Shown: positions 1-51,084, numbered from the stretch's first letter. The stretch: 64,000 nt of DNA from Candidatus Zhuqueibacterota bacterium (GCA_034521575.1 JAXHMJ010000002.1:30706-94705), one strand, 5' to 3'. The notes: a model not told the origin generated them from the sequence alone. Numbers and translations are program-made.

Positions 1-860
1 CCTCGGTCCTGATTACCGGAGAAAGCGGCACCGGCAAGGAACTGGTGGCCAATGCCCTGCACTATCGGAGCAACCGGCGCGGCAAACCGCTGGTCAAGGT
101 CAACTGCGCGGCGCTGTCCGATAATGTGATAGAGAGCGAGCTGTTCGGGCATGAAAAAGGTTCGTTTACGTCGGCGATTTCACGCCGGATCGGCCGTTTT
201 GAACTGGCGGATACCGGGACGCTGTTTCTGGACGAGATCGGAGATATTCCGTTATCGACTCAGATCAAGTTATTGCGCTGCTGGAGCAAAAAGAATTCGA
301 ACGGCTGGGCGGCAATGAGACTATTAAAGTGGATGTGCGGGTGTTGGCGGCCACCAACCGCAATCTGGAAGAGTTGGTGAAACGCGGAGAGTTTCGCGAA
401 GATCTTTATTACCGATTGAACGTCATTAATATGCACATGACGCCGCTGCGTGAGCGCAAAGGTGATATTTCATTGCTGGCGAATCACTTTTTGGGTAAAT
501 ACTCGACGCAAATGAACAAACGCATCAGTCGAATTTCCAAATCGACGCTAAAGATGCTGGAATCTTATACCTGGCCGGGTAATGTGCGTGAACTCGAGAA
601 TGCCATTGAGCGCGCGGTGGTCTACTGCAAGGCCGCCATTATTACGGAAGCGGATCTGCCGGGCAATATCCAGGACGAAGAAGGTGAAACCACCATTTCT
701 CTTCGTCTGGCTTCCTGATAAACTCATGGAGGCGGAGAAAAAACTGATCGAGCTCGTCCTGAAACGCGCCAACAACAATATGAAATACGCGGCCGAGATG
801 CTGGATGTCAGTCGCGGCACATTGTACAGCAAATGTGAAAAGCTCAAAATTAATCGATAA
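1..860 (+). CDS. sigma-54-dependent transcriptional activator (AAA+ sigma54-interaction domain plus C-terminal Fis-type HTH). It is 5'-truncated by the window edge and split over three frames by two apparent 1-nt indels (near 279 and near 705).
   Basis: ORF-track pieces 45..380, 329..718 and 582..860. Motifs seen: GESGTGKE (Walker A), [15 protein letters not shown] (GAFTGA-loop variant GSFTSA), [37 protein letters not shown], and [22 protein letters not shown]. Frames join if one nt is restored at ~279 (LLR|VLEQ) and at ~705. Confidence 0.8.
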
Positions 861-5634: not shown

Positions 5635-5663
5635 TTGATTTAAAATCAAATAAAACATATAAA
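5635..5663 (+). promoter_or_regulatory. candidate sigma70-type promoter (TTGATT-17nt-TATAAA) inside the 257-bp AT-rich region upstream of hydrogenase operon 1
   Basis: Hexamer match with a 17-nt spacer about 140 nt upstream of the hydC start. The region is very AT-rich, so a chance match is possible. Confidence 0.3.
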
Positions 5664-5801: not shown

Positions 5802-6257
5802 ATGGACACAGACGTATTATTGCGACGCTATCCCGAGAAAGATGCGTCCGCACTGATCCCGCTGCTTCAGGATATACAGGAAAGTTACGGTTATCTGTCG
5901 GAACCTGATCTGGCCAAAGTGGCCGGTTACTGTGACGTTCCCCTGTCGCGCATATACGGTGTGGCGACTTTTTATAATCAGTTCAGACTGCAGCCTCTGG
6001 GCAAGTATGTGATCCGTGTTTGCCGCGGAACCGCTTGTCATGTTAAAGGTTCGGGTGATTTACTGACCACACTTGAGAATGAACTCGGCATCAAAGCCGG
6101 TGAAACCACCAAGGATTTGAAATTTTCCATCGAAACCGTAGCTTGTATCGGCGCCTGTAGTATTGCGCCGGTGATTGCGATTAATGATGAATTTTACGGA
6201 AAACTGGATAATAAGAAAGTCAAGAAAATACTCAATGATCTAAAGTCTGAGGAGTAA
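5802..6257 (+). CDS. hydC: [FeFe]-hydrogenase NuoE-like [2Fe-2S] subunit (HydC/HndA family), operon 1
   Basis: Thioredoxin-like 2Fe-2S motifs CRGTAC...CIGACSIAPV. GAGAGG RBS. 151 aa. Confidence 0.88.
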   Translation: MDTDVLLRRYPEKDASALIPLLQDIQESYGYLSEPDLAKVAGYCDVPLSRIYGVATFYNQFRLQPLGKYVIRVCRGTACHVKGSGDLLTTLENELGIKAGETTKDLKFSIETVACIGACSIAPVIAINDEFYGKLDNKKVKKILNDLKSEE

Positions 6258-6260
6258 AAC

Positions 6261-8267
6261 GTGCCATTGCAGAATTCATATCAGGAGATTTTCACCAATT
6301 GCTGGCATAGTACGGAAAATCCCTGTCAATTTTTTATAGATTGTGTCAACAACGGACAAAAATGTCATCAGTCCGACGCCAGCGACAAACGACTCGATGC
6401 CTTTAAAAACGAGATTTTGTTAAACCATCATCAACATCCTGTTGTGTTGATCGGCATGGGAACCTGCGGACTTGCCAACGGCGCCGCCAAAGTTTATGAT
6501 GCCTTTAAGCAGCAGATCGATGCCCTCAATCAAAAAATCGATTTGGTGCAGACCGGATGTGTCGGATATTGTGCCAGGGAAGTGATTGTCGATGTAAAAC
6601 TTCCGGGTTCGCACCGGCTAACCTATTGTGAGGTGCAGCCTAAAGATGTTCCGACTATTGTTGAAGAAACACTGCTCAACCACCGGCCTGTGACCGACAA
6701 GCTGCTGGCGTTTCACAATGTCGGCGGCGAGCAAAAGGGCTGGGATCATGTTCTTGAAATGAAAGAAACCCCGTTTTTCAAAAAACAGCAGAAAAACGTA
6801 CTGGAAAACTGCGGCATAATCGATCCGGAAGAAATCGATCAATATTTGGCGCGCGGCGGTTATCAGGGATTATCCAAAGCGCTGTGGCAGCTGGACGCGC
6901 CCGGCGTCATCCAGCAAGTCCTGGACGGCGGTTTGCGCGGCCGCGGCGGCGGCGGTTTTCCCACCGGTAAAAAATGGCAACTCGCCTACAATTCACCCGG
7001 TGAGCAGAAATATGTGGTTTGTAATGCAGACGAAGGCGATCCCGGCGCGTTCATGGACCGAGCGGTGCTGGAAGGCGATCCGCACAAGGTGGTTGAGGGC
7101 ATGATCCTGGCTGCCTATGCGATCGGCGCCAGTGTGGGATATATTTACTGTCGTGCTGAGTATCCGCTGGCCATTCGCCGGCTGGAAAAAACCATCCAGG
7201 ATGCCAAAGCCTATGGACTGCTTGGAAAGAATATACTGGGCAGCGGGTTCAACTTTGAACTCAAGATCAAAAAAGGCGCGGGCGCCTTTGTGTGCGGCGA
7301 AGAAACAGCGCTGCTGCATTCAATTGAAGGCAAGCGGGGTATGCCCCGGCCGCGTCCCCCTTATCCGTCTGATGAAGGCCTGTTCGGCTGTCCTACCATC
7401 ATCAATAACGTGGAAACCTATGCCAATGTACCGGTGCTGATCCGAAACGGCAGCAAATGGTACTCGGATATCGGCACCGAAGGCTCCAAGGGGACCAAAG
7501 TGTTTGCCCTCTCCGGCACGGTCAAAAATGTCGGACTGGTTGAAGTGCCTATGGGTGTGACCCTGCGTGAAATTATTTTCGATATCGGCGGCGGCATTCA
7601 GGATGACAAGCCGTTCAAAGCCGTACAGATCGGCGGTCCGTCCGGCGGCGCATTGCCGGATTCGGTGATCGATACTCCGGTCGATTACGAGTCACTGAAA
7701 AGCATCGGCGCCATGATGGGCTCCGGTGGTCTGGTGGTCATGGACGAGTCCACCTGTATGGTGGATCTGGCCAAATATTTTATGACATTCATCCAGTCCG
7801 AGAGCTGCGGCAAGTGTATACCCTGCCGGGAAGGCACCAAACGGCTTTTGGAAATCCTGGAACGTCTGACCGAGAGTCACCGCAGCGAAAAAACGGTGGA
7901 AGAATCGCTGTTGCGCTTTCAGGGAATGGTTTACCTGGAACGTCTGGCAGATGTGATCAAAAATACCTCGTTATGCGGATTGGGTCAAACCGCAGCCAAC
8001 CCGGTATTGAGTACCCTTAAATATTTCCGGGAAGAGTACGAGTCTCACTTGTACGACCGAAAATGTCCGGCCGGCAGCTGCCGTCAATTGCTGACCTATA
8101 GAATTGATACCGACAAATGTACCGGCTGTACGTTGTGCGCGCGCAAATGTCCGGAAAACGCAATACTCGGAGAGCGCAAAAAAGCTCATTATATCATTGA
8201 TGAGAAATGTATCCGTTGCGACCAATGCCGCGCCAATTGCAAGTTTGATGCTATAGTCGTGGAATAA
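6261..8267 (+). CDS. hydB: [FeFe]-hydrogenase NuoF-like flavoprotein subunit (HydB/HndC family). It has an N-terminal fused HndB-like thioredoxin-like domain, a ~60-aa Cys/His-rich leader, and a C-terminal 2x[4Fe-4S] ferredoxin domain.
   Basis: GTG start 7 nt after a GAGGAG RBS. VLIGMGTCGLANGAAKV (HndB-like). NADH/FMN site GRGGGGFPTGKKW. Fe-S motifs ESCGKCIPCREG, CTGCTLCARKCP and CIRCDQCRANC. Confidence 0.88.
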   Translation: MPLQNSYQEIFTNCWHSTENPCQFFIDCVNNGQKCHQSDASDKRLDAFKNEILLNHHQHPVVLIGMGTCGLANGAAKVYDAFKQQIDALNQKIDLVQTGCVGYCAREVIVDVKLPGSHRLTYCEVQPKDVPTIVEETLLNHRPVTDKLLAFHNVGGEQKGWDHVLEMKETPFFKKQQKNVLENCGIIDPEEIDQYLARGGYQGLSKALWQLDAPGVIQQVLDGGLRGRGGGGFPTGKKWQLAYNSPGEQKYVVCNADEGDPGAFMDRAVLEGDPHKVVEGMILAAYAIGASVGYIYCRAEYPLAIRRLEKTIQDAKAYGLLGKNILGSGFNFELKIKKGAGAFVCGEETALLHSIEGKRGMPRPRPPYPSDEGLFGCPTIINNVETYANVPVLIRNGSKWYSDIGTEGSKGTKVFALSGTVKNVGLVEVPMGVTLREIIFDIGGGIQDDKPFKAVQIGGPSGGALPDSVIDTPVDYESLKSIGAMMGSGGLVVMDESTCMVDLAKYFMTFIQSESCGKCIPCREGTKRLLEILERLTESHRSEKTVEESLLRFQGMVYLERLADVIKNTSLCGLGQTAANPVLSTLKYFREEYESHLYDRKCPAGSCRQLLTYRIDTDKCTGCTLCARKCPENAILGERKKAHYIIDEKCIRCDQCRANCKFDAIVVE

Positions 8268-8281
8268 AACAGAGGAATACA

Positions 8282-9993
8282 ATGAGAATAACGATAAATG
8301 GAAAAGAATGCTGGGCCAATCCCGGAGAAACCATATTAAAAGTGGCTGAGCGGGAAGGTATCAATATCCCCACTCTTTGTTATTTAAAAGGCCTTTCTCC
8401 GACCGGTTCCTGCCGAATCTGTATAGTACAAGTTGACGGCGGCCGGATGGCGCCTTCCTGTGCGTTCCCGGTTTGCGAAGGCATGAACGTGGAAACCAAC
8501 TCTGCCCAAGTGCGCCGGGCGCGAAAAACCATTATTGAATTATTGATTGCCAATCATCCTCAGGATTGTCTGAACTGTGTCCGCAACGGCAACTGTGAAT
8601 TGCAGACGCTTGCCGAGGCTTATGGTGTACGCAGCAAGCGCTACATCGGTGAGCGCCGCAAAGCCAAACTGGATGTGGCGTCTCCGTCGATTGAACGCGA
8701 TCCGGAAAAATGTATTTTGTGCGGCCGCTGTGTGCGCGTTTGTCATGAGGTTCAGGGTGTCGGCGCCATTGATATCGCCAACCGCGGATTTCAGAGTACG
8801 GTGATGCCGGCGTTCAATCACAGTCTGAATACCGTGGCTTGTGTGTTCTGCGGTCAGTGTGTGGTCAATTGTCCCGTAGGCGCGCTGCGCGAAAAAAGCC
8901 ATGTGAAAAAAGTTTGGGAAGCGCTCAATGATCCGGACACGCTGGTGGTTTCACAGATCGCTCCGGCGGTACGTGTGGCTCTGGGTGAAGAGTTTGGACT
9001 GGAACCCGGTACCGTGGTGACCGGCAAAGCGGTGAGCGCGCTGCGCCGCATTGGCATGGATGTGGTGTTTGATACCAATTTCAGCGCCGATCTGACCATC
9101 ATGGAAGAAGCCACGGAACTGGTGTCGCGTCTGCAAAATAACGGCACCATCCCCATGCTGACCTCATGCAGTCCCGGATGGATAAAATATATAGAACATT
9201 TTTATCCCGAACTGCTGGAGCATGTGTCGAGCTGTAAATCCCCGCATCAGATGCAGGGTGCGCTGATCAAATCCTACTGGGCGGAGAAAAGGGAATCGAT
9301 CCGGAAAAGATTTTTGTAGTATCTATTATGCCCTGTACTGCCAAAAAATATGAAGCGCAGCGTCCGGAACTGGGAGATGAGCATCAGGATGTAGATGCGG
9401 TACTGACCACGCGCGAGCTGGCGCAGATGATAAAAACAGCAGGAATCGATTTTACCAGAATAGAAGATGATCATTTCGATGATCCGCTGGGCGAATCCAC
9501 TGGCGCGGCTATTATTTTCGGCGCCACCGGCGGTGTGATGGAAGCGGCGCTGCGAACCGCCCATTACAGCCTGACGGGTACGGAATGCGCTGATATTGAA
9601 TTCAAACCCATCCGCGGTCTGGAAGGCGTGAAGGAGGCTGAGATTAAGATCGACGGCACCGAACTCAGGGTTGCTGCGGTCAACAGTCTCAGCCAGATCA
9701 AATCTCTGCTCGATGATATCCGCGACGGCAAATCGCCGTATCAATTCATTGAAGTGATGGCCTGTCCGGGCGGCTGTATCAACGGCGGCGGTCAGCCACT
9801 GCCCTCGGATGCGGAAAAAACTGAAAAACGTATGCAGTCCATTTACAAGATCGACCGCGGGCTGCCGAAACGCTGTTCGCACCAGAATGAATCAGTGCAA
9901 AGACTGTATCAGGAATTTCTGGAAAAACCGAACAGCCACAAAGCCCACGAACTGCTGCACACACATTACGTCAAACGCACGGAAAGTGTCTAA
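8282..9993 (+). CDS. hydA: [FeFe]-hydrogenase catalytic subunit (HydA, group A multimeric type), operon 1. It is split by an apparent 1-nt deletion near 9283 into 8282..9319 and 9328..9993.
   Basis: N-terminal 2Fe-2S and His-ligated/4Fe-4S ferredoxin modules (CRICIV, HPQDCLNCVRNGNCELQ, CILCGRCVRVC, CVFCGQCVVNCP). H-cluster motifs TSCSPGW (L1, non-canonical), MPCTAKKYE (L2) and EVMACPGGCINGGGQP (L3). Paralog alignment with the 18606 gene shows a missing 't' in 'aaaa(t)ggg'. Confidence 0.85.
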
Positions 9994-10002
9994 TATCATA
10001 TT

Positions 10003-12033
10003 ATGGCTGTTGTCTGGACCATAGAAGAAAAATGCCGGCGCTGCTATTCCTGCGTCCGGGAATGTCCGGCCAAGGCGATCAAGGTTGAACACGGTCAGGC
10101 CAAAGTGATCGAGAACCGATGCCTGGGATGCGGACATTGTGTAAATGTGTGCTCTCAGGGTGCCAAAGAAGTGCTGAACGGCACCCGGGAGGTCATGCAT
10201 TACCTAAAATCGGACAGCGTGATTGCCATGCTGGCGCCGTCGTTTCCGGCTGTTTATCCGGATCTGGATACCCAACAGCTCGTCGGCGCCCTGCGCGCCT
10301 GCGGGTTTGATAAAGTCGTTGAAGTGGCATTCGGCGCGGATCTGGTCAACAAGGCGTATTTGCATCTGCTAAAAGCCCCTGATGATCCGGATATCGAAAC
10401 AATGCTGCCGGTGATTGCATCGTCGTGTCCGGCGATTTTTTCCTATGTTCAGAAATATATACCGGAGCTGGTACCGCATATTGCCCGCATTGTATCGCCG
10501 ATGGTGGCCATGGGACGCGCAGTGAATTATTTATATGGTCAGGACAAACGGGTGGTTTTCATCGGACCCTGCACGGCTAAAAAAGTTGAAATACAGGATG
10601 AACAGGTCAGTGATTCCGTGGATATGGTGCTGACCTTTGCCGAGCTGAACGATCTGTTTCAGTATTATCAAATTGATTTTGATGCTGTTGCCCCCCGGCC
10701 TCTGGATCCGCCGCATGCGTATCTGGGACGCCTGTATCCGGTGTCAGGCGGTTTTCTGCGCAGCGCCGGACTGCCTACGGATCTGATGAATGATGATATT
10801 GTGTTAACCGAGGGCAAAAACCGGGTTCTCAATTTGCTGGATCTGGTGAAGAAAAAGGAAATCGACGCCAAGCTTATTGATGTGCTGTTTTGTGAAGGCT
10901 GTATCAGCGGTCCGTTTTCCAATAAAAGTGAAAATTATTTTGACAGCAAGCGCAACATTGTGCGCTATACCGAGAACCGGCGCAACCAGGCCGATTATCC
11001 GGCCTGGCGGGAAACAATCGAAGACTGTTTGTCCCACGTAAATCTATATCGTTCTTTTAAAGCAGAATCGGTCAATAACCCCGAGCCGACGGAAGAAGAG
11101 ATTTCTGAAATTCTGGCGCGCATTGATAAACATGAAAAATCCGACGAGCTGAACTGCGGCGCCTGCGGCTATTCTTCATGCCGCGAACACGCGGTTGCGG
11201 TTTATCAGGGACTGGCCGAAGCGGATATGTGTCTGCCATTTCTTATCGACAAGATGGAACATATGAAAAATAAACTGCAGGCCTCTCTGGACAAGCTTGC
11301 GACCACGCAGGAGCAGTTGATTCAACATGAAAAACTGGCGTCAATCGGACAGCTGGCGGCCGGAGTCGCGCATGAAGTCAATAATCCGCTCGGTTCAATC
11401 CTGCTGTACGCGCATCTGGTCAAACAGCGAATGGATCAGGCTGAGGACGATGCAAAAGATCTGAGCTTTATTATCGAGGAAGCCAAACGCTGTCAGAACA
11501 TTGTATCCGGTCTGCTTGATTTTTCACGACAGGGACAGCTTACACTCAAACAGAATCATGTACCGGATATTATTTTGAAAATGATTGAGGTGGTCAAAGA
11601 ACAGCCCGAGTTTAAGCATGTCCGAATTCATACGGAATTTGCTGATGATCTGCCCGAGATTTATGTTGATGAGGATCAGCTGTATCAGGTGTTTTTGAAT
11701 ATCACCATGAATGCGGCTGAAGCTATGCCGGAGGGAGGAGACCTGACCATCAAGGCATTTTTGGATGATGACACCAACAAGATGCGCATCACATTCACGG
11801 ACACCGGTGTTGGAATCTCCAAAGACAATCAGAGCAAGGTGTTTACCCCCTTTTTCACCACAAAACAGATCGGCAAGGGAACCGGCCTGGGTCTGGCGAT
11901 CGCCTATGGTATATTAAAAATGCATAAAGGCAATATTCGTGTTAAAAGCGAGGTTGATAAAGGATCTACCTTTATTGTTGATATTCCCCTCGCTTCTAAT
12001 CAAACCATAACCAAAAAGGAGCAAGATGACTAA
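10003..12033 (+). CDS. HydS-like sensory [FeFe]-hydrogenase domain fused to a histidine kinase transmitter (2x[4Fe-4S] ferredoxin + H-domain + Cx2Cx4Cx16C + HisKA + HATPase_c)
   Basis: Ferredoxin motifs CRRCYSCVRECP and CLGCGHCVNVC. H-cluster-like motifs SSCP (L1 with first Cys to Ser), GPCTAKKVE (L2), FCEGCISGP (L3 variant). CGACGYSSC-x16-C. H-box HEVNNPLG. N/G boxes NITMNAAEAM, DTGVGI, GKGTGLGLAIAYG. Start is 10 nt after the hydA stop. Confidence 0.85.
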   Translation: MAVVWTIEEKCRRCYSCVRECPAKAIKVEHGQAKVIENRCLGCGHCVNVCSQGAKEVLNGTREVMHYLKSDSVIAMLAPSFPAVYPDLDTQQLVGALRACGFDKVVEVAFGADLVNKAYLHLLKAPDDPDIETMLPVIASSCPAIFSYVQKYIPELVPHIARIVSPMVAMGRAVNYLYGQDKRVVFIGPCTAKKVEIQDEQVSDSVDMVLTFAELNDLFQYYQIDFDAVAPRPLDPPHAYLGRLYPVSGGFLRSAGLPTDLMNDDIVLTEGKNRVLNLLDLVKKKEIDAKLIDVLFCEGCISGPFSNKSENYFDSKRNIVRYTENRRNQADYPAWRETIEDCLSHVNLYRSFKAESVNNPEPTEEEISEILARIDKHEKSDELNCGACGYSSCREHAVAVYQGLAEADMCLPFLIDKMEHMKNKLQASLDKLATTQEQLIQHEKLASIGQLAAGVAHEVNNPLGSILLYAHLVKQRMDQAEDDAKDLSFIIEEAKRCQNIVSGLLDFSRQGQLTLKQNHVPDIILKMIEVVKEQPEFKHVRIHTEFADDLPEIYVDEDQLYQVFLNITMNAAEAMPEGGDLTIKAFLDDDTNKMRITFTDTGVGISKDNQSKVFTPFFTTKQIGKGTGLGLAIAYGILKMHKGNIRVKSEVDKGSTFIVDIPLASNQTITKKEQDD

Positions 12034-12412
12034 CCATATTTTACTGATCGATGACGACGTCGATTTTGTGGAAATGAATAAAACCTTTTTGGAAACCAAA
12101 GGGTATACGGTAGATACCGCATACAATGGAACCGAAGGGGTGGAGCGCGTCAAAGAATCCGCGCCGAACTTGATCGTTCTGGATGTTATGATGGATCAGG
12201 TGGGGGAAGGATTTGAAGTGGCGCGGACTCTGAAACAGGATGAACAGTATAAACACATTCCCATCATCATGCTCACATCCGTAAACAAGGAACATGGATT
12301 TGATCTGACGGTGGGTGCGGACGAACAATGGAATCCTGTCGATTGCTTTTTAGAGAAACCATTGTCGCCTCAGGATTTATTAGCAAAAGTCAGAGAATTT
12401 TTGTCGGAATAA
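12026..12412 (+). CDS. stand-alone response-regulator receiver (CheY-like, no output domain)
   Basis: LLIDDDVDF...LIVLDVMMD...LTS...K: the Asp pocket and phospho-Asp are conserved. The gene overlaps the sensor-kinase stop. Confidence 0.85.
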   Translation: MTNHILLIDDDVDFVEMNKTFLETKGYTVDTAYNGTEGVERVKESAPNLIVLDVMMDQVGEGFEVARTLKQDEQYKHIPIIMLTSVNKEHGFDLTVGADEQWNPVDCFLEKPLSPQDLLAKVREFLSE

Positions 12413-12430
12413 ACAGGATAGGGAAACAGA

Positions 12431-12823
12431 ATGAACGATAAAGTACTTTTGGTAGATGATGATGTCGATCTGATTGAACAATATACACCGGTTCTGGAGC
12501 AGGCCGGTTATCAGGTAAAAGGCGCCTATGACAGCAAAGAAGGCCTGGAGGCATTTGAAGCATTTAAACCGGATGTGGTTTTTGTTGATCTGGCCATGGA
12601 GCAGTTTGATTCCGGGTTTGTGCTTTGCCAAAAGCTGAAAAAAACGCAAAAAGGTGCAGACACGCCGGTGATTATCATGACCTCAGCCGGTCACGAAACC
12701 GGTATTCGCTTTTCCACGGATACGGCGGAGGAGAAAAAATGGATCCGCGCGGATGATTATCTGGAAAAACCGGTTGCGCCCCGCGATCTGGTGCAATATC
12801 TGAATGAAAAAATCTTTAAATGA
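12431..12823 (+). CDS. stand-alone response-regulator receiver (second copy, no output domain)
   Basis: VLLVDDDVDL...VVFVDLAME...MTS...K. 130 aa. Confidence 0.85.
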   Translation: MNDKVLLVDDDVDLIEQYTPVLEQAGYQVKGAYDSKEGLEAFEAFKPDVVFVDLAMEQFDSGFVLCQKLKKTQKGADTPVIIMTSAGHETGIRFSTDTAEEKKWIRADDYLEKPVAPRDLVQYLNEKIFK

Positions 12824-14301
12824 AAATTAAAAACGCCGACATATTGGTTGTGGATGATGAACGCGGTATGCGGGAAGGGATTCAGAGACTGCTGGGCCTG
12901 AAAGGCCTGAATGTGGATACGGCCGAGAGTGGCAGTGAAGGGATTGAAAAAGGCATTTCAAAAGAATATGACCTGTATTTCATTGATCTGAAAATTCCGG
13001 ATATTGAAGGCACCCAGGTGCTGCGTGAGATCAAGCTGGCCTATCCTGAAGCGATTTGTGTGATCCTGACCGCTTATGCGTCCATTGAAACCGCCATTGA
13101 AACCACTCAGCTCGGCGCTTATCAATATATTCCCAAACCGTTTGATCCGGAAGAGCTGCAGAATCTGGTCAACCGGGCGCTCGAAAAACGCTGGTACGTG
13201 CTGGAAGCGCGTCAGCTGCGTGAAGAGCGCGAAAAACGTCTTTTGGAACTGCAGCATGAACAATCGCGGGTCCGCAGTATCGTCAATGCTTTGGATGACG
13301 GGGTGGTGGTGATCAATGTGGACGGCCAGGTGGTGTTTCACAACTCGAGTTTTTTAAAGATGCTCAATGTGCCCAATGATTTTCAGACCGGTGAACAGGT
13401 TTGGGATATTGTGCCGGGAGAACTGCATGACCAGATCAAGGAGGTCATGGCGCAGCAGGATGATTTTCGCGCCATCAAACAGGAAATCACCATCAAACCG
13501 CCGGCTGAACTGGTGCTGATGGCCAACACGACGCCCATTGTTGATACGGATCATGAACTCATCGGTGTGGTATCGGTTTTACGCGATATTTCGGAACTCA
13601 AAAAACTGGACATTTTGAAATCCCAGTTTGTGAATATGGCAGCCCATGAACTCAAGGCGCCCCTGGCTGCCGTTCAGGGATACCTTGATTTGATCATTGA
13701 TCGTTCCCTCGGAGACAATCTTGACAGCTATCAGACCTACCTGGAGCGCTCCCACGACCGCCTCGAAGCTCTTATTTCCATGATCAATGATCTTTTGAAT
13801 ATTTCCAGAATGGAAGCCGGCAAAGTCAGACGTGAAATTGAACAAGTCGATCTGGCCGGTTTGCTTAAAGATAAAATTGAACTGTTTACAAAAGAAATAA
13901 AGCAGAAAAATTTACAACTTGATATTCGTCTGCAGAAAGATTTCATGGTGAAATGCGATCGCGAAGAAATAGAACGCGTTTTTAACAATCTGATCAGCAA
14001 TGCCGTCAAATATAATAAAGAAAACGGTACAATATCGATCAAAGCAGGTAAAGACGGACACTATGCCAAAGTCAGTGTCAGTGATACCGGAATCGGTTTG
14101 CAGCCTGATGAAAAGGACCGGCTGTTTGAAGAATTTTATCGGGCTAAAAACAAGTTTACACGAAAAATCACCGGTACCGGACTGGGTTTGTCTATTGTCA
14201 AACGTATTATAGACGCCAACGCCGGAAAAATCATTGTCGAAAGTGAATTTGAAAAAGGAACAACCTTTACCGTCTTTTTGCCACTGGAAACTGAATACTA
14301 G
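12820..14301 (+). CDS. hybrid sensor kinase: N-terminal REC + PAS + HisKA + HATPase_c
   Basis: REC (ILVVDDERGM...LYFIDLKIPD), PAS-like segment (VVVINVDGQVVFHNSSFLKM), H-box AAHELKAPL, N box NLISNAVKYN, G boxes DTGIGL/GTGLGLSIV. Overlaps the upstream REC stop (ATGA). Confidence 0.85.
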   Translation: MKIKNADILVVDDERGMREGIQRLLGLKGLNVDTAESGSEGIEKGISKEYDLYFIDLKIPDIEGTQVLREIKLAYPEAICVILTAYASIETAIETTQLGAYQYIPKPFDPEELQNLVNRALEKRWYVLEARQLREEREKRLLELQHEQSRVRSIVNALDDGVVVINVDGQVVFHNSSFLKMLNVPNDFQTGEQVWDIVPGELHDQIKEVMAQQDDFRAIKQEITIKPPAELVLMANTTPIVDTDHELIGVVSVLRDISELKKLDILKSQFVNMAAHELKAPLAAVQGYLDLIIDRSLGDNLDSYQTYLERSHDRLEALISMINDLLNISRMEAGKVRREIEQVDLAGLLKDKIELFTKEIKQKNLQLDIRLQKDFMVKCDREEIERVFNNLISNAVKYNKENGTISIKAGKDGHYAKVSVSDTGIGLQPDEKDRLFEEFYRAKNKFTRKITGTGLGLSIVKRIIDANAGKIIVESEFEKGTTFTVFLPLETEY

Positions 14302-14350
14302 AGCGGCATAACACTGCCGCGACAGAGGTCAACCAACGGAGGACATCTGT

Positions 14351-14692
14351 ATGAAGCTGTCAGAGATTGCTCAGGCTCTCGGTCTGGACATAATCAGCGG
14401 TGAATCGAATCTGGACAAACAAGTGGAATATGGCTATTTGTCTGATATTCTCAGTGATGTGATGTCCAGGGCGCCTAAAGCAGCGATCTGGATCACCAAT
14501 CAAACCCATGAAAATATCCTGGCCCTGGTCTTCTTCAAGGGACTGGCCGGGGTGATCCTGCCGGAAAACATGTCTCTGGAAGAGGCGTCGATTAAAAAAG
14601 CGGAAGAGAAAAATATACCGGTGTTTCGAAGCAATTTGACGGCATTCGATATCGCCGGTCGATTGTACGAGCTGGGTATACGAGGTCAATAA
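14351..14692 (+). CDS. DRTGG-domain protein (hydrogenase-associated small regulator)
   Basis: 113 aa. Sequence LSDILSDVMS...NILALVFFKGLAGVIL is typical of the DRTGG/CBS-associated domain found next to HydABC operons. Confidence 0.6.
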   Translation: MKLSEIAQALGLDIISGESNLDKQVEYGYLSDILSDVMSRAPKAAIWITNQTHENILALVFFKGLAGVILPENMSLEEASIKKAEEKNIPVFRSNLTAFDIAGRLYELGIRGQ

Positions 14693-15444
14693 TGCTCAGT
14701 TGGTACAAAGCGGATTTGCATATCCATACGGTGCTTTCGGCCTGTGCTGAACTCAGCATGGGACCGAAAGATATTGTCCGTAAGAGCCTTGAACAGGGAC
14801 TGGATATCATCGCGATCACCGATCATAATTCCGCTGAAAATATCACGGCCGTCATCAAAGCCGCGGAATCGACCGATTTGCTGGTGCTTCCCGGTATGGA
14901 AGTGTACAGCCGCGACGAGGCGCATATTGTCTGTCTGTTTGAAACCCTGGGTGATGTGCTTGCGTTTCAGCGTATCATCTATGCGGCAGTGGCTGAAGGC
15001 AAATATGATTCAAGTATGTTCGGCGAGCAGATTCTTTGTGATGCGAATGAAAATGTACTCGGTGAAAGCGATCGGCTTTTATCGCTGCCGGTGAATCTGA
15101 ATCTGGATCAGATTGCGGATTATATTGCAGAGTTTAACGGCATTATGATTCCGGCGCATGTGGACCGGCGGTCTCACAGCATCTTGCGGGTGCTGAGTTT
15201 TATGCCGAATAATCTTCCGATTTACGCAATGGAGATCGCGCATTCGTATGAAAAGGCGTGCAAATCTTTCAGTATATTAAAGAACGGCAAGTATTCGGTG
15301 ATCCGCTCTTCGGATGCGCATGATATTGATCAGATTGGCCAAAAGTTTACGTATTTCAAGCTAAAAGAAAAGTCGTTCAGCGAGATACGCAAGGCCCTGC
15401 GTCAGGTGGACGGACGAATGGCATCACTGGACAAGGTGAACTGA
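14692..15444 (+). CDS. PHP-domain (polymerase/histidinol-phosphatase-like) metal-dependent phosphoesterase
   Basis: ADLHIHTVLS...IAITDHNS...HVDRR His/Asp metal-binding motifs. Start overlaps the DRTGG stop (TAATG). Confidence 0.75.
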   Translation: MLSWYKADLHIHTVLSACAELSMGPKDIVRKSLEQGLDIIAITDHNSAENITAVIKAAESTDLLVLPGMEVYSRDEAHIVCLFETLGDVLAFQRIIYAAVAEGKYDSSMFGEQILCDANENVLGESDRLLSLPVNLNLDQIADYIAEFNGIMIPAHVDRRSHSILRVLSFMPNNLPIYAMEIAHSYEKACKSFSILKNGKYSVIRSSDAHDIDQIGQKFTYFKLKEKSFSEIRKALRQVDGRMASLDKVN

Positions 15445-15992
15445 TGCGCGAACTGTCGCTGAACATACTGGATATCATCACCAATTCCATCGAAGCGGAG
15501 GCAAACCGTGTGATTCTGCATATTGATGAAGACAAGGTGGAAAATCGTCTGACTTTTCGGATTCGGGACAACGGCCGCGGCATGAGTCAGGAATTTGTCC
15601 GGCAGGTGATGGATCCGTTTGTCACATCGCGCACCACGCGTCCGGTGGGCATGGGCCTGTCACTGTTGCACCAGCTGGCGCGGCAGGCGCGCGGAGACCT
15701 TGATATTCGATCAGAACTCGGTCAGGGTACGGAGGTCAGTACCTATTTGCGACTGCATTGCCTCAATCGACCGCCTCTGGGTGATGTGGGCGGGACGATT
15801 GTCAATCTGGTGATCAGCAATCTGGATGTGCATTTTATGTACATCCACACAACAGACTATGGACGGCTCTGGTTTGATTCTTACTGGATACTGGCGCGGG
15901 CGGCGGAACAGGATAAAACGCTTTACGATATGATTCATCCGTCTTTGGAACATATCAAAAGCCGGTTGAAAGACATTAATTCGAAAGCATAA
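15444..15992 (+). CDS. GHKL/HATPase_c-type ATP-binding protein (anti-sigma-factor / Ser-kinase-like)
   Basis: NILDIITNSIEA (N-box-like), RIRDNGRGM (G1), GMGLSLL (G2). Overlaps the PHP stop (CTGATG). Confidence 0.7.
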   Translation: MRELSLNILDIITNSIEAEANRVILHIDEDKVENRLTFRIRDNGRGMSQEFVRQVMDPFVTSRTTRPVGMGLSLLHQLARQARGDLDIRSELGQGTEVSTYLRLHCLNRPPLGDVGGTIVNLVISNLDVHFMYIHTTDYGRLWFDSYWILARAAEQDKTLYDMIHPSLEHIKSRLKDINSKA

Positions 15993-16064: not shown

Positions 16065-16427
16065 GTGAAAACACTTGCAGATCTTCGCGCGGTCAAAGAA
16101 CAAGCCAAAAAAGAAATGGCCGCTCGTGAAAAAACAGCAAAGTACCGTGTCTGTGTCGGCATGGGCACATGCGGTATTGCAGCAGGCGCCCGGGATGTGA
16201 TGAGCGCGCTGCTGGACGAAATCAGTAAACGAGGTGTTGAAGACGCGGTGGTCACGCAGACGGGCTGCCAGGGATACTGTGATCAGGAACCGCTGGTACA
16301 GGTGACTCAGCCGGATAAAACTGTCATTTCCTACGGCAAAGTGACGCCCCAGAGCGCCCGTGATATTGTGGCGCAGCATATCATAGAGGGTAACGTGCTC
16401 TCTGATCTGGTGTTTAAACAGGATTAA
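16065..16427 (+). CDS. hndB: HndB-like small thioredoxin-like [2Fe-2S] ferredoxin subunit, operon 2
   Basis: VCVGMGTCGIAAGA...CQGYCDQEP. GTG start after an AAGGAGG RBS. Confidence 0.8.
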   Translation: MKTLADLRAVKEQAKKEMAAREKTAKYRVCVGMGTCGIAAGARDVMSALLDEISKRGVEDAVVTQTGCQGYCDQEPLVQVTQPDKTVISYGKVTPQSARDIVAQHIIEGNVLSDLVFKQD

Positions 16428-16474
16428 GAAGAACAAATCAAGACGTGTATACGCGTTAAACAAGGAGGTTATCA

Positions 16475-16951
16475 ATGCAGAACTTGGATCGAGTGGATGC
16501 GATCGTGAAAAATTATAACGATATGAAAACACCACTCATTTACATTCTCAAGGATGTTCAGAAAGAATACGGATTTCTCTCTGAGGATATTCTGACGCGG
16601 GTCGCACAGAGAACCGATATCCCTCTGAGCAATATCTATGGTGTTGCGACATTTTACAGTCTCTTCACCACAGAAGAAAAGGGCAAATATATCGTTCGCT
16701 GCTGCAACAATGCCCCCTGTCATGTCAAAGGTTCAAAAGATGTTCTGGATGCAATCCAGAATTATCTCGGTGTGCAGGTCAATGAGACCTCACTGGACAA
16801 GACATTTACTCTGGAATTTACCAGCTGTCTCGGATTGTGTGCGGTTGCTCCCGTCATGATGATCAATGACGAGGTATATGGTAATCTGACTCCGGAAAAA
16901 GCAGTGTCAATTTTGAAAGATTATAAAATGAAAGGGCTGTCGAATGCATAG
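16475..16951 (+). CDS. hndA: NuoE-like [2Fe-2S] subunit (HndA/HydC family), operon 2
   Basis: CCNNAPCHVKG...CLGLCAVAPV. Paralogous to 5802..6257. Confidence 0.88.
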   Translation: MQNLDRVDAIVKNYNDMKTPLIYILKDVQKEYGFLSEDILTRVAQRTDIPLSNIYGVATFYSLFTTEEKGKYIVRCCNNAPCHVKGSKDVLDAIQNYLGVQVNETSLDKTFTLEFTSCLGLCAVAPVMMINDEVYGNLTPEKAVSILKDYKMKGLSNA

Positions 16952-18546
16952 ATCACATATACTCATCGCAATGGACGCTCACACGATAGCCCAGGGTGCC
17001 CGTGCCGTCAAGGAGGCTCTCGTGCGTGAGCTTGAAATGGCAAATCTCGGCAATGAGGTCAAGGTTGTTGAAACCGGCAGTCTGGGAATTTACAACAAGG
17101 GCGTGGTTCTGGTTGTGTTTCCGGATGCGGTTTACTATGCCGGTGTCAAGGTGGAAGATGTATCCGAGATTATTTCCGAGCACATTATCAAAGGGCGCAT
17201 TGTCGAACGTCTGCGCTATACCGACGTACCCGAATACAAAGAAGGCGAACAGGGCGAAGCCCCGCGCTTTGGCAAACAGATACGCGTTGTGTTGAAGAAC
17301 GCCGGCAATATTGATCCGGAAAGCATTCAGGAATATATCGCGAATGACGGTTATGAAGCGCTGGGACGTGCATTGACCGAGATGAAACCCGGTGAGGTGC
17401 TGGAAACCGTGAAAAACAGTGAACTGCTGGGACGCGGCGGCGCGTTTTTTCCCACTGGATTGAAATGGAGTTTTGCCGCAGCTGAAAAAAACACGCCCAA
17501 ATATATTGTCTGTAACGCCGATGAAGGCGAACCCGGCACATTTAAAGACCGGTTGATCCTGGAAGGCGATCCGCACCTCATTTTAGAGGGTATGGCACTG
17601 TCCGGATACGCGGTCGGCGCATCCATGGGCTATATTTACATTCGCGGTGAATATAAAATGTCCATTGAACGCATCAACCGCGCCATTGAACAGGCGCGTG
17701 AAAACGGATTGTTGGGCGAAAACCTGTTCGATTCGGATTTTTCTTTTGATATTGAGGTGCGTGAAGGCGCAGGCGCCTATATCTGCGGTGAGGAAACCGC
17801 TTTGATTGAATCGATCGAAGGCAAACGCGGTGAACCGCGTGATAAACCGCCGTTTCCGCCGTCAGAAGGTCTGTGGGGTAAACCCACAATCGTCAATAAT
17901 GTGGAAACTCTGGCCAATATTCCGCCGATTCTGCGCAATGGTCCGGACTGGTTCAAGAAAATGGGAACCGAGAAAAGCCGCGGCACCAAGGTGTTTACCA
18001 TGGTCGGCAATATCAACAATCCCGGATTGATCGAAGTGCCCATGGGCATCACGCTTCGTGAAATCATTTACGATATCGGACATGGCATTCCCAACGGCAA
18101 GGGCTTTAAACTGGCTCAGATGGGCGGCACCACCGGTGGTATTCTGACGGAAGAACACCTGGACATGCCCATGACGGTTGAAAATCTGCGCAGTGTCGGA
18201 GCCGGTCTGGGTTCGGGCGCTCTGCTGGTGGTTGATGAGTCTCAGGATGTGGTTGATCTGGTTCGCAATTTTGTTGAATTTTTCAACCATGAATCCTGCG
18301 GCAAATGTACACTGTGCCGTGAAGGCAACGGTCGACTGCTGCAGCTGCTGGATAAAATCCTGGACGGTCAGGGAACCGTTAAAGATATTGAATTGATGCA
18401 AGAATTTGGCACAGACCATGATGAAAGGCGCGTTCTGCGGCCTGGGTCAGGCCGCTCCCATTCCCGTGCTGGGATGTCTGAACCATTTCAGGAAAGATTT
18501 TCTGGCGGTTGTCCAAACCGCAGCGTCTGAAATTGAAGCTGCCTGA
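16944..18546 (+). CDS. hndC: NuoF-like flavoprotein subunit (HndC/HydB family), operon 2. An apparent 1-nt indel near 18405-18417 moves the last ~40 aa into another frame. It has no fused N-terminal HndB domain and no C-terminal ferredoxin tail.
   Basis: GRGGAFFPTGLKW, HESCGKCTLCREG. Then TMMKGAFCGLGQAAPIPV...AASEIEAA in frame +1, matching the NTSLCGLGQTAANPV tail of the paralog. Confidence 0.85.
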
Positions 18547-18605
18547 GGTCTGTGAAGCAATGTTGAACTGGAACTGTGATAATCATGAATAAACGGAGGT
18601 GTCCT

Positions 18606-51059: not shown

Positions 51060-51084
51060 TATTTTAAGACTGGAATTATCCGAA

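What the first reader, a model, noticed from the sequence alone, without database searches (positions are those of the whole stretch)
12026..14301. Branched phosphorelay (two single-domain REC proteins plus a REC-PAS-HK hybrid) with no DNA-binding output encoded in the island
Directly after the sensor-kinase come two CheY-like receivers and a hybrid kinase. The hybrid has its own N-terminal receiver and a PAS domain. All genes overlap or abut (12026/12033, 12820/12823), which suggests translational coupling. None carries an effector domain. The only nearby transcription factor is the frameshifted sigma-54 activator at the window start, whose own receiver domain would lie upstream of the window. 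The output may therefore be post-translational (through the DRTGG/PHP/HATPase genes) or via that EBP. A multi-step relay with PAS input would integrate H2 with a second signal such as redox.
Basis: partly seen in the sequence, partly recalled or inferred. Interest (0 to 1): 0.55.

Follow-up and report, generated by a model that had tools for sequence, protein, structure and literature searches.

The report
Hydrogenase-linked two-tier histidine kinase cascade
Two stand-alone receiver proteins and a receiver-controlled histidine kinase sit directly behind a hydrogen-sensor kinase inside a hydrogenase operon of an uncultured KSB1 bacterium; the set is intact, conserved in many related bacteria, and most likely works as a serial kinase-to-kinase cascade rather than a branched phosphorelay, which makes it a plausible but untested route from H2 sensing to hydrogenase control.

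Summary
Window 12026-14301 encodes REC1, REC2 and a REC-PAS-HisKA-HATPase kinase. All have intact catalytic residues and are tightly packed behind a HydS-type sensory [FeFe]-hydrogenase fused to a histidine kinase (10003-12033).

The source is a candidate division KSB1 MAG. The order nuoE-nuoF-hydA / HydS-HK / REC(s) / REC-HK recurs in about 29 loci from KSB1, Calditrichia, Ignavibacteria and unnamed metagenome contigs. Usually there is one stand-alone REC; the two-REC form is found only in KSB1-like loci.

"Branched phosphorelay" is not supported. There is no Hpt domain. The sensor kinase core is ZraS/AtoS-like and the hybrid's receiver is NtrC1-like. The hybrid's kinase core is HK853/PhoR-like and REC1/REC2 are RR468/PhoB-like. 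This favours a serial cascade: HydS-HK to Rec-controlled HK (LvrB class) to stand-alone receivers.

Across lineages the constant neighbour of this receiver subfamily is HydABC, not the DRTGG/PHP/HATPase genes. Some relatives carry an adjacent NtrC-type activator, a -24/-12 promoter and a palindrome. The window has no such promoter, and its truncated activator remains only a candidate.

This is a new variant of known kinds and of moderate interest. The wiring is inferred, not shown.

The parts
12026..12412 (+). REC1: stand-alone receiver (128 aa). Phospho-acceptor Asp53 is at nt 12182-12184. Its start overlaps the HydS-HK stop by 8 nt.
   Evidence: Pfam Response_reg E=1.5e-20, with no other domain. 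The best solved homologue is RR468, 4ja2/3dge_C, E=1.8e-16. The junction was read.
12431..12823 (+). REC2: stand-alone receiver (130 aa), a paralogue of REC1. Phospho-acceptor Asp53 is at nt 12587-12589. Its stop overlaps the hybrid's start (ATGA).
   Evidence: Pfam Response_reg E=4.5e-21. All 128 homologues with E<=1e-10 among the 120 listed are 127-172 aa with REC only, apart from one 73-aa fragment. The AF2 model has pLDDT 88.6 and a canonical (beta-alpha)5 fold with alpha4 split into two short helices. Foldseek top hits are the RpaA REC, CheY4 and RR468.
12820..14301 (+). Rec-controlled histidine kinase (493 aa). Layout: REC (nt 12841-13170, Asp56 at 12985-12987), long helical linker, PAS (13267-13590), HisKA (13618-13821, His276 at 13645-13647), HATPase_c (13957-14289).
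   Evidence: Pfam. Invariant D61/K106/H276/N394/N399/G-box residues across 18 orthologues. The REC plus linker is best matched by NtrC1 (1ny5, aa 7-156), and the kinase core by HK853 (E about 1e-37). The AF2 model has a continuous helix over aa 110-159 followed by PAS-DHp-CA. Foldseek hits are WalK, VicK, LOV-HK chimeras and full-length LvrB 8vc9.
10003..12033 (+). HydS-HK: sensory-type [FeFe]-hydrogenase domain fused to a histidine kinase, the presumed input of the cascade. His457 is at nt 11371-11373. The Cx2Cx4Cx16C motif covers nt 11155-11232.
   Evidence: Pfam Fer4, Fe_hyd_lg_C 1.8e-49, FeS, HisKA and HATPase_c. The kinase core is best matched by AtoS/ZraS. The P1 motif is SSCP (proton-relay Cys replaced by Ser) and P2 is GPCTAKK.
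5802..9993 (+). First HydABC-type operon: nuoE-like 5802-6257, nuoF-like 6261-8267, hydA 8282-9993. The hydA reading frame is broken at the run GAGAAAAGGGAAT. The signalling genes follow with no intergenic gap larger than 18 nt.
   Evidence: Pfam and NCBIfam. The frameshift was located. The order is conserved in about 20 loci.
14351..15992 (+). DRTGG (14351-14692), PHP (14692-15444) and stand-alone HATPase_c (15444-15992). This is a separate accessory module at the head of the second hydrogenase operon.
   Evidence: Pfam. It is present only in KSB1-like loci and L093, and absent from most loci that carry the REC/hybrid module. The HATPase resembles kinase CA domains rather than RsbW/SpoIIAB in the PDB.
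16065..20345 (+). Second hydrogenase operon: 2Fe-2S ferredoxin-like gene, nuoE-like, nuoF-like and hydA.
   Evidence: Pfam and NCBIfam.
1..860 (+). 3' part of a sigma-54 enhancer-binding protein (AAA+, lid, Fis-type HTH). It is cut by the window edge and read in three frames because of two frameshifts. It is a candidate transcriptional output, but the link is unproven.
   Evidence: Pfam Sigma54_activat and AAA_lid_14. It is 42% identical to L001's hyd-adjacent EBP. 21 of 31 closest homologues carry an N-terminal REC.

Best explanation
The three genes are the downstream half of a conserved signalling module. The module is built into a HydABC-type (NuoE/NuoF/HydA) [FeFe]-hydrogenase operon of a KSB1 bacterium.

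Step 1 (inferred from domain content). The preceding gene is a HydS-type sensory hydrogenase fused to a ZraS/AtoS-like histidine kinase. The H2/redox state of its H-cluster and of the Cx2Cx4Cx16C cluster sets autophosphorylation at His457.

Step 2 (inferred from family typing and conserved adjacency). This kinase phosphorylates Asp56 of the NtrC1-like receiver at the N-terminus of the 493-aa protein. That protein is a Rec-controlled histidine kinase of the LvrB class. A long helix and a PAS domain couple its receiver to an HK853/PhoR/WalK-like DHp-CA core.

Step 3 (inferred). The activated Rec-HK autophosphorylates at His276. It then transfers the phosphoryl group to the RR468/PhoB-like stand-alone receivers REC1 and REC2 (Asp53 in each). 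These are tandem paralogues of a receiver subfamily whose constant genomic neighbour is HydABC.

Step 4 (speculative). The phosphorylated receivers act by protein-protein contact through their remodelled alpha4-beta5-alpha5 face. The target would be the hydrogenase complex or an unlinked regulator.

In some relatives a transcriptional branch through an NtrC-type activator and a sigma-54 promoter is encoded next to the module. In this window that branch is possible through the truncated activator at 1-860, but it is not demonstrated.

The system is therefore a serial kinase cascade of the LvrA-LvrB-LvrC type, not a His-Asp-His-Asp phosphorelay.
For: Domains and catalytic residues:
- All are intact.

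Family typing:
- The HydS-HK core is best matched by AtoS/ZraS in NCBIfam (5e-67, 4e-58) and by ZraS in the PDB (1.7e-39).
- The hybrid's receiver is best matched by AtoC/NtrC/ZraR and by NtrC1/NtrC/DctD in the PDB, with the match running through the linker helix.
- The hybrid's kinase core is best matched by PnpS/PhoR/WalK and by HK853 (about 1e-37).
- REC1 is best matched by RR468, the cognate partner of HK853 (1.8e-16). REC1 and REC2 are both best matched by the PhoB-type receiver in NCBIfam.

Modularity across loci:
- A sensor HK lies immediately upstream of the hybrid in about 29 hydrogenase loci.
- The same holds for non-hydrogenase sensor kinases with no small receiver: L093 (Cache-HAMP-HK), L099 (PAS-PAS-HK), L096, L100, L104.
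- L122 has HydS-HK directly followed by the hybrid.
- L102/L103 have hydA-REC-hybrid without HydS-HK.

Structure:
- The AF2 model shows REC alpha5 continuing into a 50-residue helix, then PAS-DHp-CA. Foldseek aligns it over its full length to LvrB.
- LvrB is the experimentally established Rec-controlled HK, activated by the upstream kinase LvrA and phosphorylating a separate regulator LvrC (PMC13269768).

The small receivers:
- The REC2/hybrid start-stop overlap recurs in L085, L001, L169 and L170.
- The subfamily is always single-domain.
- It lies next to HydABC even where no HydS-HK or hybrid is nearby: L166 and L167.
Against: - No phosphotransfer has been measured. Family-level resemblance does not establish partner specificity.
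- HydS-HK and REC1 overlap by 8 nt here, and overlap in L083 and L170 too. By the usual adjacency rule this suggests direct HydS-HK to REC1 transfer.
- The metagenome loci were collected with the hybrid as query, so co-occurrence statistics are biased towards it.
- In L166/L167 the receivers occur without the hybrid, so another kinase must serve them there.
- In the Phycisphaerae member P0211 the acceptor Asp is Asn.
- In hybrid orthologues that group with Marinimicrobia-named hits (P0092, P0101; themselves unnamed), the receiver lacks the acceptor Asp. The cascade cannot run that way in every lineage.
- The final target of REC1/REC2 is unknown.
Confidence: 0.5

Rival explanations
1. Parallel (branched) transfer. 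HydS-HK phosphorylates REC1, REC2 and the hybrid's receiver directly. The small receivers would act as phosphate sinks or as DivK-like allosteric modulators of the two kinases.
For: HydS-HK/REC1 overlap and conserved adjacency: the small receiver always lies directly after HydS-HK. All three receivers have intact acceptor sites. Single-domain receivers acting as sinks or allosteric modulators are established elsewhere (own knowledge: CheY1 of Sinorhizobium, DivK of Caulobacter).
Against: The sensor kinase core is ZraS/AtoS-like, whereas REC1/REC2 are RR468/PhoB-like. The receiver subfamily occurs next to HydABC without HydS-HK in L102, L103, L166 and L167. There is no Hpt, so this would not be a phosphorelay in the strict sense.
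Confidence: 0.25
2. The real output is transcriptional. HydS-HK, directly or through the hybrid, controls an NtrC-type sigma-54 activator: the truncated gene at 1-860 or an unlinked one. That activator drives the hydrogenase operons, as in HoxJ-HoxA or HupT-HupR. The small receivers would be accessory.
For: L001/L082 carry a REC-sigma54-HTH_8 gene next to the module. L099, L104 and L119 carry an EBP beside the hybrid or the operon. TGGCAC-N5-TTG lies at -53 to -62 in L001, L082, L083 and L085, against a background of 0.011 per 400 nt. The palindrome TGTGGAGAAnnTCCACA occurs only in L001, L082 and L083, apart from one unrelated TGTGGA-N5-TCCACA match in L068, within 2.3 Mb of loci. The HydS-HK core is of the type that partners NtrC-family regulators. 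21 of 31 closest homologues of the window's EBP have an N-terminal REC.
Against: No -24/-12 element and no palindrome lie upstream of either hydrogenase operon in this window. The window's EBP is separated from hyd by sucCD, NUDIX and ABC-F genes. It is only 42% identical to L001's EBP over the shared part. Most orthologous loci have no EBP within 7-10 kb. This rival is not exclusive of the best explanation.
Confidence: 0.3
3. Output runs through the DRTGG/PHP/HATPase proteins encoded just downstream, as post-translational control and by analogy with LvrC (a receiver fused to a Bergerat-fold anti-sigma domain).
For: The trio follows the hybrid after a 49-nt gap here, and also in L001, L082, L083, L169 and L170. 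LvrC joins a receiver to a Bergerat-fold domain (PMC13269768). The HATPase gives a weak anti-sigma F hit (TIGR01925, 2.8e-07).
Against: The trio is absent from L085, L087-L091, L110-L138 and L166-L168, which keep the receiver and/or the hybrid. In L093 it heads a hydrogenase operon a few kb from an unrelated sensor kinase. The HATPase matches kinase CA domains in the PDB, not RsbW/SpoIIAB.
Confidence: 0.07

Closest known systems
Lvr pathway of pathogenic Leptospira (LvrA -> LvrB -> LvrC); LvrB is the prototype Rec-controlled histidine kinase (PMC13269768)
   Same: An upstream histidine kinase feeds a protein with an N-terminal receiver, a helical linker and a DHp-CA core. That protein in turn phosphorylates a separate regulator with no DNA-binding domain. 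The model of the window protein aligns to full-length LvrB. The PAS-less orthologues in L110-L138 have exactly the Rec-DHp-CA layout.
   Different: - A PAS domain is inserted between the linker helix and DHp.
- The kinase core is HK853/PhoR-like, and sequence identity to LvrB in the Foldseek alignment is about 18%.
- The upstream kinase is a hydrogenase fusion.
- The presumed downstream regulators are bare receivers, not receiver/anti-sigma fusions.
- Nothing has been tested biochemically.
H2-sensing systems HoxBC-HoxJ-HoxA (Ralstonia eutropha) and HupUV-HupT-HupR (Rhodobacter capsulatus) (own knowledge; regulatory hydrogenase described in PMC5665086)
   Same: A low-activity sensor hydrogenase controls a histidine kinase in order to regulate hydrogenase genes. 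The kinase type here (ZraS/AtoS-like) is the type that partners NtrC-family activators, and some relatives carry such an activator with a -24/-12 promoter.
   Different: - The sensor is of the [FeFe] class, not [NiFe].
- Sensor and kinase are one polypeptide.
- There is an extra Rec-HK tier and stand-alone receivers.
- No activator or sigma-54 promoter is demonstrable in this window.
Putative sensory [FeFe]-hydrogenases: TmHydS, TamHydS, HydDB group C, and 'BfuT' of PAS type or His-kinase type next to BfuABC (PMC8163306, PMC8924675, PMC11406978, PMC6163223, PMC8542988)
   Same: The upstream gene shares several features with them:
- an N-terminal two-[4Fe-4S] region;
- an H-domain that lacks the proton-relay Cys;
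- the Cx2Cx4Cx16C motif;
- a position beside a trimeric bifurcating-type hydrogenase.
His-kinase-fused forms are already recorded.
   Different: The papers I could search do not mention response regulators for these systems. They do not describe the downstream REC / Rec-HK genes analysed here.
HK853-RR468 of Thermotoga maritima (PDB 3dge and related entries)
   Same: These are the closest solved homologues of the hybrid's kinase core and of REC1 respectively. RR468 is likewise a stand-alone receiver.
   Different: HK853 has no N-terminal receiver or PAS domain. The window receivers carry a family-specific alpha4 insertion (T90-G91, aromatic 94, W/F104). This is similarity, not proof of pairing.
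Classical multistep phosphorelays (Spo0F-Spo0B-Spo0A, ArcB, LuxQ-LuxU-LuxO, RcsCDB)
   Same: Several receiver domains and more than one kinase are involved.
   Different: There is no Hpt or Spo0B-type transferase anywhere in the cluster. The hybrid's receiver is N-terminal (an input), not C-terminal.

Membership tests
Receiver (REC, PF00072) domains capable of phosphorylation | Pfam match above the gathering score, plus the acidic pair, acceptor Asp, Thr/Ser, aromatic switch residue and Lys | tested here: met
   All three domains score 74-93 bits against a cut-off of 30.2. REC1 has D9 D10 D53 T84 F108 K111. REC2 has D9 D10 D53 T84 Y110 K113. The hybrid has D12 D13 D56 T84 K106.
Class I histidine kinase (HisKA + HATPase_c) | H-box His and N, G1, G2 boxes | tested here: met
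   Hybrid: H276, N394/N399, DTGIG and GTGLGL are invariant in 18 orthologues. HydS-HK: H457 (AHEVNNPL), NITMNA, DTGVGI, GTGLGL.
Rec-controlled histidine kinases (LvrB class) | An N-terminal receiver joined by a helical (alphaS) linker to the kinase module | tested here: met
   AF2 model: REC aa 7-109, continuous helix aa 110-159, then PAS-DHp-CA. Foldseek aligns the full length to LvrB 8vc9 (E about 2e-23). The difference is an inserted PAS domain. PAS-less orthologues also exist.
Rec-controlled histidine kinases (LvrB class) | Receiver phosphorylated by a separate upstream kinase, and kinase activity switched by that phosphorylation | not testable with these tools
   Only genomic adjacency of a sensor kinase is available: about 29 hydrogenase loci plus L093, L096, L099, L100 and L104. 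Family typing pairs a ZraS-like HK with an NtrC1-like REC.
Multistep His-Asp-His-Asp phosphorelay | An Hpt or Spo0B-like histidine phosphotransferase between two receivers | tested here: not met
   No Hpt (or other phosphotransferase) family is among the Pfam hits listed for the 30 ORFs scanned between positions 1 and 35.7 kb.
Multistep His-Asp-His-Asp phosphorelay | Hybrid kinase with a C-terminal receiver that accepts from its own His | tested here: not met
   The receiver is N-terminal (aa 8-117) and HATPase_c ends the protein at aa 490 of 493.
H2-sensor / NtrC-type regulator systems (HoxJ-HoxA-like logic) | A receiver-containing sigma-54 activator and a -24/-12 promoter at the regulated hydrogenase operon | tested here: inconclusive
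   The window has an EBP fragment with an HTH but its N-terminus is unseen. No -24/-12 element lies upstream of 5802 or 16065/16475. Relatives L001, L082, L083 and L085 do have one.
Sensory-type [FeFe]-hydrogenase (group C / BfuT, His-kinase type) for the upstream gene | H-domain lacking the proton-relay Cys, a C-terminal Cx2Cx4Cx16C motif, a fused signalling domain, and a position next to a trimeric hydrogenase | tested here: met
   Fe_hyd_lg_C 1.8e-49. SSCP aligns to TSCSP of HydA. CGACGYSSC-16-C spans aa 385-410. HisKA and HATPase_c are fused. nuoE-nuoF-hydA lie directly upstream. H-cluster binding and H2 response are not testable here.

The most novel reading that the evidence does not exclude
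The stand-alone receivers define a HydABC-dedicated receiver subfamily. Its signature is DDD, D53, M56, G62-F63, T84, T90-G91, aromatic 94, W/F104 and K113. Under this reading the receivers bind the electron-bifurcating hydrogenase complex itself. H2 sensed by HydS-HK would then tune hydrogenase activity post-translationally through a phosphorylation-dependent accessory subunit. This would be the first defined output of any sensory [FeFe]-hydrogenase, and the first case of a two-component receiver directly regulating a bifurcating enzyme.
Probability: 0.2. Interest if true: 0.7.

Novelty: new variant of a known kind. Interest (0 to 1): 0.4.

Why it matters
How putative sensory [FeFe]-hydrogenases pass on their signal is an acknowledged open question. 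PMC8163306 asks how signal transduction is achieved, and PMC8924675 calls the sensory role putative for lack of physiological evidence.

In this module the sensor is fused to a canonical histidine kinase, and its likely partners are encoded in the same operon. The question therefore reduces to standard assays:
- H2-dependent autophosphorylation of the sensor kinase;
- phosphotransfer profiling against three receivers;
- activation of the Rec-controlled kinase by BeF3-.

The module is widespread in fermentative FCB-group and related uncultured bacteria. If the receivers act on HydABC or its expression, it would therefore affect how H2 partial pressure feeds back on fermentation in anoxic sediments.

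The component types themselves (Rec-HK, stand-alone receivers, His-kinase-fused HydS) are all known. The value lies in the combination and in its testability, not in a new principle.

Tried and rejected
1. Retrieving the sequence upstream of the window. Exact-protein look-ups for the hybrid, P0001 and the ABC-F gene found no record. A genome-contig scan with the reconstructed EBP returned only generic sigma-54 activators at 57% identity or less, so the source genome is not in that collection. The N-terminus of the EBP therefore remains unseen.

2. Sigma-54 promoter and palindrome searches in the window were negative. The best candidate upstream of nuoE1, TGGTTCGCAAAGTTGTG, has the wrong -24 bases and the wrong spacing.

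3. A Rosetta-stone search for the small receiver fused to an output domain was uninformative. The exhaustive representative search was dominated by multi-receiver proteins, and close full-length hits are all about 130-140 aa. One 231-aa variant (P0369, L091:2057-2752) has an N-terminal extension with no Pfam match.

4. The idea that the stand-alone HATPase at 15444 is an unfused LvrC-like anti-sigma partner found no support. PDB sequence matches are kinase CA domains.

5. Literature searches found no paper on DRTGG together with hydrogenase, and no paper describing response regulators downstream of HydS. The library is limited to open-access papers.

6. Partner prediction from the specificity residues of the HK853-RR468 interface was considered but not carried out. 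Too few paired sequences were available for a meaningful covariation analysis.

7. Rfam and tRNA scans of the whole window found nothing. Antisense ORFs inside 12026-14301 were not examined further.

Full report
**1. The observation**

The ORF list places three co-directional genes at 12026-12412, 12431-12823 and 12820-14301.

Pfam results:
- The first two genes give only a receiver domain (E=1.5e-20 and 4.5e-21).
- The third gives receiver (aa 8-117), PAS (150-257), HisKA (267-334) and HATPase_c (380-490).
- The gene before them, 10003-12033, combines two ferredoxin-type cluster motifs, an [FeFe]-hydrogenase H-domain (1.8e-49), a small Fe-S motif, HisKA and HATPase_c.

- HydS-HK and REC1 overlap by 8 nt (ATGACTAA), with a Shine-Dalgarno-like AAAAGGAG upstream.
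- REC2 and the hybrid overlap in ATGA.
- REC1 and REC2 are 18 nt apart.

All phosphorylation-site residues are canonical. REC1 and REC2 have D9/D10, D53, T84, an aromatic switch residue and the conserved Lys. The hybrid has D12/D13, D56, T84, K106, H276 and complete N/G1/G2 boxes.

**2. Source and conservation**

Proteins identical to the hybrid and to REC2 are annotated in a candidate division KSB1 MAG on a 1.17 Mb contig.

Orthologues of the hybrid at 44-75% identity occur in KSB1, Calditrichia, Marinimicrobia and Ignavibacteriales. I fetched their neighbourhoods and annotated them with the window's own domains.

The order nuoE-nuoF-hydA / HydS-HK / stand-alone REC / REC-HK recurs in about 29 loci:
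- Five independent KSB1-like loci have two small receivers followed by DRTGG-PHP-HATPase-ferredoxin-nuoE-nuoF-hydA: the window, L001/L082, L083/L084, L169 and L170.
- Most other loci have a single small receiver and no DRTGG trio.
- A distant group (L110-L138) has a PAS-less REC-HK of about 370 aa.

The core module is therefore HydS-HK + REC + REC-HK attached to a HydABC operon. REC1/REC2 form a lineage-specific tandem duplication. The PAS domain and the DRTGG/PHP/HATPase genes are add-ons.

**3. What the parts resemble**

- The HydS-HK kinase core scores best against AtoS and ZraS and against the ZraS structure (1.7e-39). These kinases partner NtrC-family regulators.
- The hybrid's receiver scores best against AtoC, NtrC and ZraR. 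In the PDB it matches NtrC1, NtrC and DctD, and the NtrC1 match runs through the linker helix to residue 156.
- The hybrid's kinase core scores best against PnpS, PhoR and WalK and against HK853 (about 1e-37).
- REC1's best solved homologue is RR468, the stand-alone cognate partner of HK853 (1.8e-16).
- REC2's top PDB hits are RpaA, PhoP and RR468. For both small receivers the best NCBIfam match is the PhoB-type receiver.
- An AlphaFold model of the hybrid (pLDDT 81) shows the receiver's last helix continuing as a 50-residue helix into PAS, then DHp and CA. Foldseek returns WalK, VicK, LOV-kinase chimeras and full-length LvrB.
[quoted passage not shown] LvrA phosphorylates its receiver, coiled-coil formation frees the CA domain, and LvrB then phosphorylates a separate regulator, LvrC (PMC13269768).

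**4. Wiring**

These correspondences fit a serial cascade better than a branch. The proposed order is HydS-HK (ZraS-like), then the NtrC1-like receiver of the Rec-HK, then its HK853-like core, then the RR468-like REC1/REC2.

Gene-content patterns agree with this:
- The hybrid family sits immediately after a sensor kinase even when that kinase is not a hydrogenase and no small receiver is present. Examples are L093 (Cache-HAMP-HK), L099 (PAS-PAS-HK), L096, L100 and L104.
- L122 has HydS-HK directly followed by the hybrid.
- L102/L103 have hydA-REC-hybrid without HydS-HK.

No Hpt or Spo0B-like protein is among the Pfam hits for the ORFs scanned between 1 and 35.7 kb, and the hybrid's receiver is N-terminal. 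The strict definition of a phosphorelay is therefore not met.

The caveats are real:
- Family resemblance is not specificity.
- The HydS-HK/REC1 overlap argues for direct transfer to REC1.
- The metagenome sample was baited with the hybrid.
- In orthologues that group with Marinimicrobia-named hits (P0092, P0101), the hybrid's receiver has lost its acceptor Asp.

I give the serial model 0.5 and the parallel model 0.25.

**5. The output**

The window contains no other receiver and no DNA-binding response regulator.

The small receivers belong to a coherent, strictly single-domain subfamily. All listed homologues are 127-172 aa except one fragment. The conserved signature in 49 members is D9, D10, D13, D53 (48/49), M56, G62, F63, T84, T90-G91, an aromatic at 94, W/F104 and K113. 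The REC2 model (pLDDT 88.6) is a normal (beta-alpha)5 fold in which alpha4 is split into two short helices around a loop.

Distant members were looked up without reference to the hybrid, and they still lie next to HydABC:
- L166: the receiver directly precedes nuoE-nuoF-hydA.
- L167 (Phycisphaerae): the receiver follows hydA and precedes hydE/hydG/hydF and a PAS-type HydS with a SpoIIE phosphatase.
- L168 (Ignavibacteria): the full module is present.

The constant partner of this receiver subfamily is thus the hydrogenase operon. It leaves open, and mildly favours, an action on HydABC itself or on its expression.

**6. The sigma-54 activator**

The gene fragment at the window start reads through three frames to position 860 and ends in a Fis-type helix-turn-helix. 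One frame break lies at a homopolymer run (GAGCAAAAAGAA). The hydA1 break likewise lies at GAGAAAAGGGAAT. At least eight other genes in the window are split in the same way, so these breaks are probably sequencing errors and not pseudogenes.

In L001/L082 a REC-sigma54-HTH_8 activator lies next to a second REC-REC-hybrid set directly upstream of the hydrogenase operon. L099, L104 and L119 also carry an activator beside the hybrid or the operon.

A TGGCAC-N5-TTG element lies 53-62 nt before the first gene in L001, L082, L083 and L085. The background rate is 0.011 per 400 nt. The palindrome TGTGGAGAAnnTCCACA occurs upstream of it in L001, L082 and L083. The only other match to the relaxed pattern in 2.3 Mb of fetched loci is an unrelated site in L068.

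In this window neither element is present. The activator is separated from the hydrogenase genes by sucCD, a NUDIX gene and an ABC-F gene. It is only 42% identical to L001's activator over the shared part. The upstream sequence could not be retrieved.

**7. Comparison with the literature**

His-kinase-linked or His-kinase-fused sensory [FeFe]-hydrogenases are on record. They appear as HydDB group C1 (PMC6163223, PMC8542988) and as the "His" type of BfuT next to BfuABC (PMC11406978).

The upstream gene here shows the hallmarks reported for HydS proteins (PMC8163306):
- the two N-terminal [4Fe-4S] motifs;
- loss of the proton-relay Cys (SSCP aligned to TSCSP of HydA);
- the exact Cx2Cx4Cx16C motif.

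None of the papers I could search describes the downstream receivers or the Rec-HK. PMC11406978 does not mention response regulators at all. Reviews call the sensory role putative and the signal route unknown.

**8. Verdict**

The finding is real, and its description of the genes is accurate. Its mechanistic label ("branched phosphorelay") is probably wrong. Its suggested outputs are either unsupported (DRTGG/PHP/HATPase; PAS as a redox sensor) or unresolved (the activator).

The module is best filed as a hydrogenase-linked member of the Rec-controlled-kinase cascades. It pairs with a HydABC-associated stand-alone receiver subfamily that has not, to my knowledge, been described.

Novelty: new variant of a known kind. 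Interest: 0.4.

Noticed in passing
window 1-860, 898-2074, 8282-9993, 30054-32277, 32877-33689, 50989-52537, 53730-55429, 59260-60580: Many genes are split into adjacent or overlapping ORFs: the sigma-54 EBP (twice), sucC, hydA1, a PdxA/four-carbon-acid-kinase-like gene, GntP permease, DHDPS, PhoD and a sulfatase. Of the breaks inspected, hydA1 and the first EBP break lie at homopolymer runs (GAGAAAAGGGAAT, GAGCAAAAAGAA). This points to long-read indel errors rather than pseudogenes.
   Followed up: partly
L001:486-640, L082:486-640, L083:2286-2421, L085:3294-3309: Relatives carry a sigma-54-type TGGCAC-N5-TTG element 53-62 nt before the first operon gene. L001, L082 and L083 also carry a palindrome TGTGGAGAAnnTCCACA about 120-135 nt further upstream, which is a likely activator binding site. 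Neither element is present in the window.
   Followed up: partly
L001:674-2941, L082:674-2941, L169:102-1998: A second, paralogous receiver(s)-plus-REC-PAS-HK set lies upstream of the first hydrogenase operon. In L001/L082 it is preceded by a REC-sigma54-HTH_8 activator. The equivalent region of the window's genome would lie outside the window, if it exists.
   Followed up: no
L001:674-1042, L083:2461-2829: 122-aa proteins with only a weak receiver match (E=6e-07 and 6e-04) and no DDD acidic motif. They look like pseudo-receivers at the head of the operon.
   Followed up: no
P0092, P0101 (hybrid orthologues); P0211 (L167:8001-8414): The acceptor Asp has been lost in some lineages. It is replaced by Ala in the hybrid's receiver of P0092 and P0101, which group with Marinimicrobia-named orthologues. 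It is replaced by Asn in the Phycisphaerae stand-alone receiver. Parts of the module may therefore work without phosphorylation there.
   Followed up: no
window 5635-5649: A perfect palindrome TTGATTT-A-AAATCAA lies in the AT-rich 260-nt region upstream of nuoE1. It is a candidate operator for an unknown regulator and does not match the sigma-54 or activator motifs of the relatives.
   Followed up: no
window about 20400 onward: G+C content drops from about 0.50 (hydrogenase/signalling region) to about 0.42-0.44. The genes change to a LacI-family regulator (20599-21606), a T9SS-sorted protein, a SusC-like TonB receptor, sulfatases and a BT_1020-like/sialidase-like protein, which together resemble a polysaccharide-utilisation locus.
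   Followed up: no
L110:706-2622, L111:1265-3127, L112:1925-3784, L117, L120, L124, L129, L132, L136, L138 (minus strand): In the distant PAS-less group, a second HydS-like H-domain gene lies divergently upstream of nuoE. Those loci therefore carry two putative sensor hydrogenases.
   Followed up: no
window 14303-14320: A short hairpin (GCGGCA-N6-TGCCGC) without a T-tract lies in the 49-nt gap between the hybrid kinase and the DRTGG gene. It is not a convincing intrinsic terminator.
   Followed up: no
window 8282-9993 and 18576-20345; L001, L083, L085 HydA genes: All catalytic HydA copies carry the P1 motif TSCSPGW rather than TSCCPxW. This is conserved across the loci, so it is not an assembly error.
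   Followed up: no
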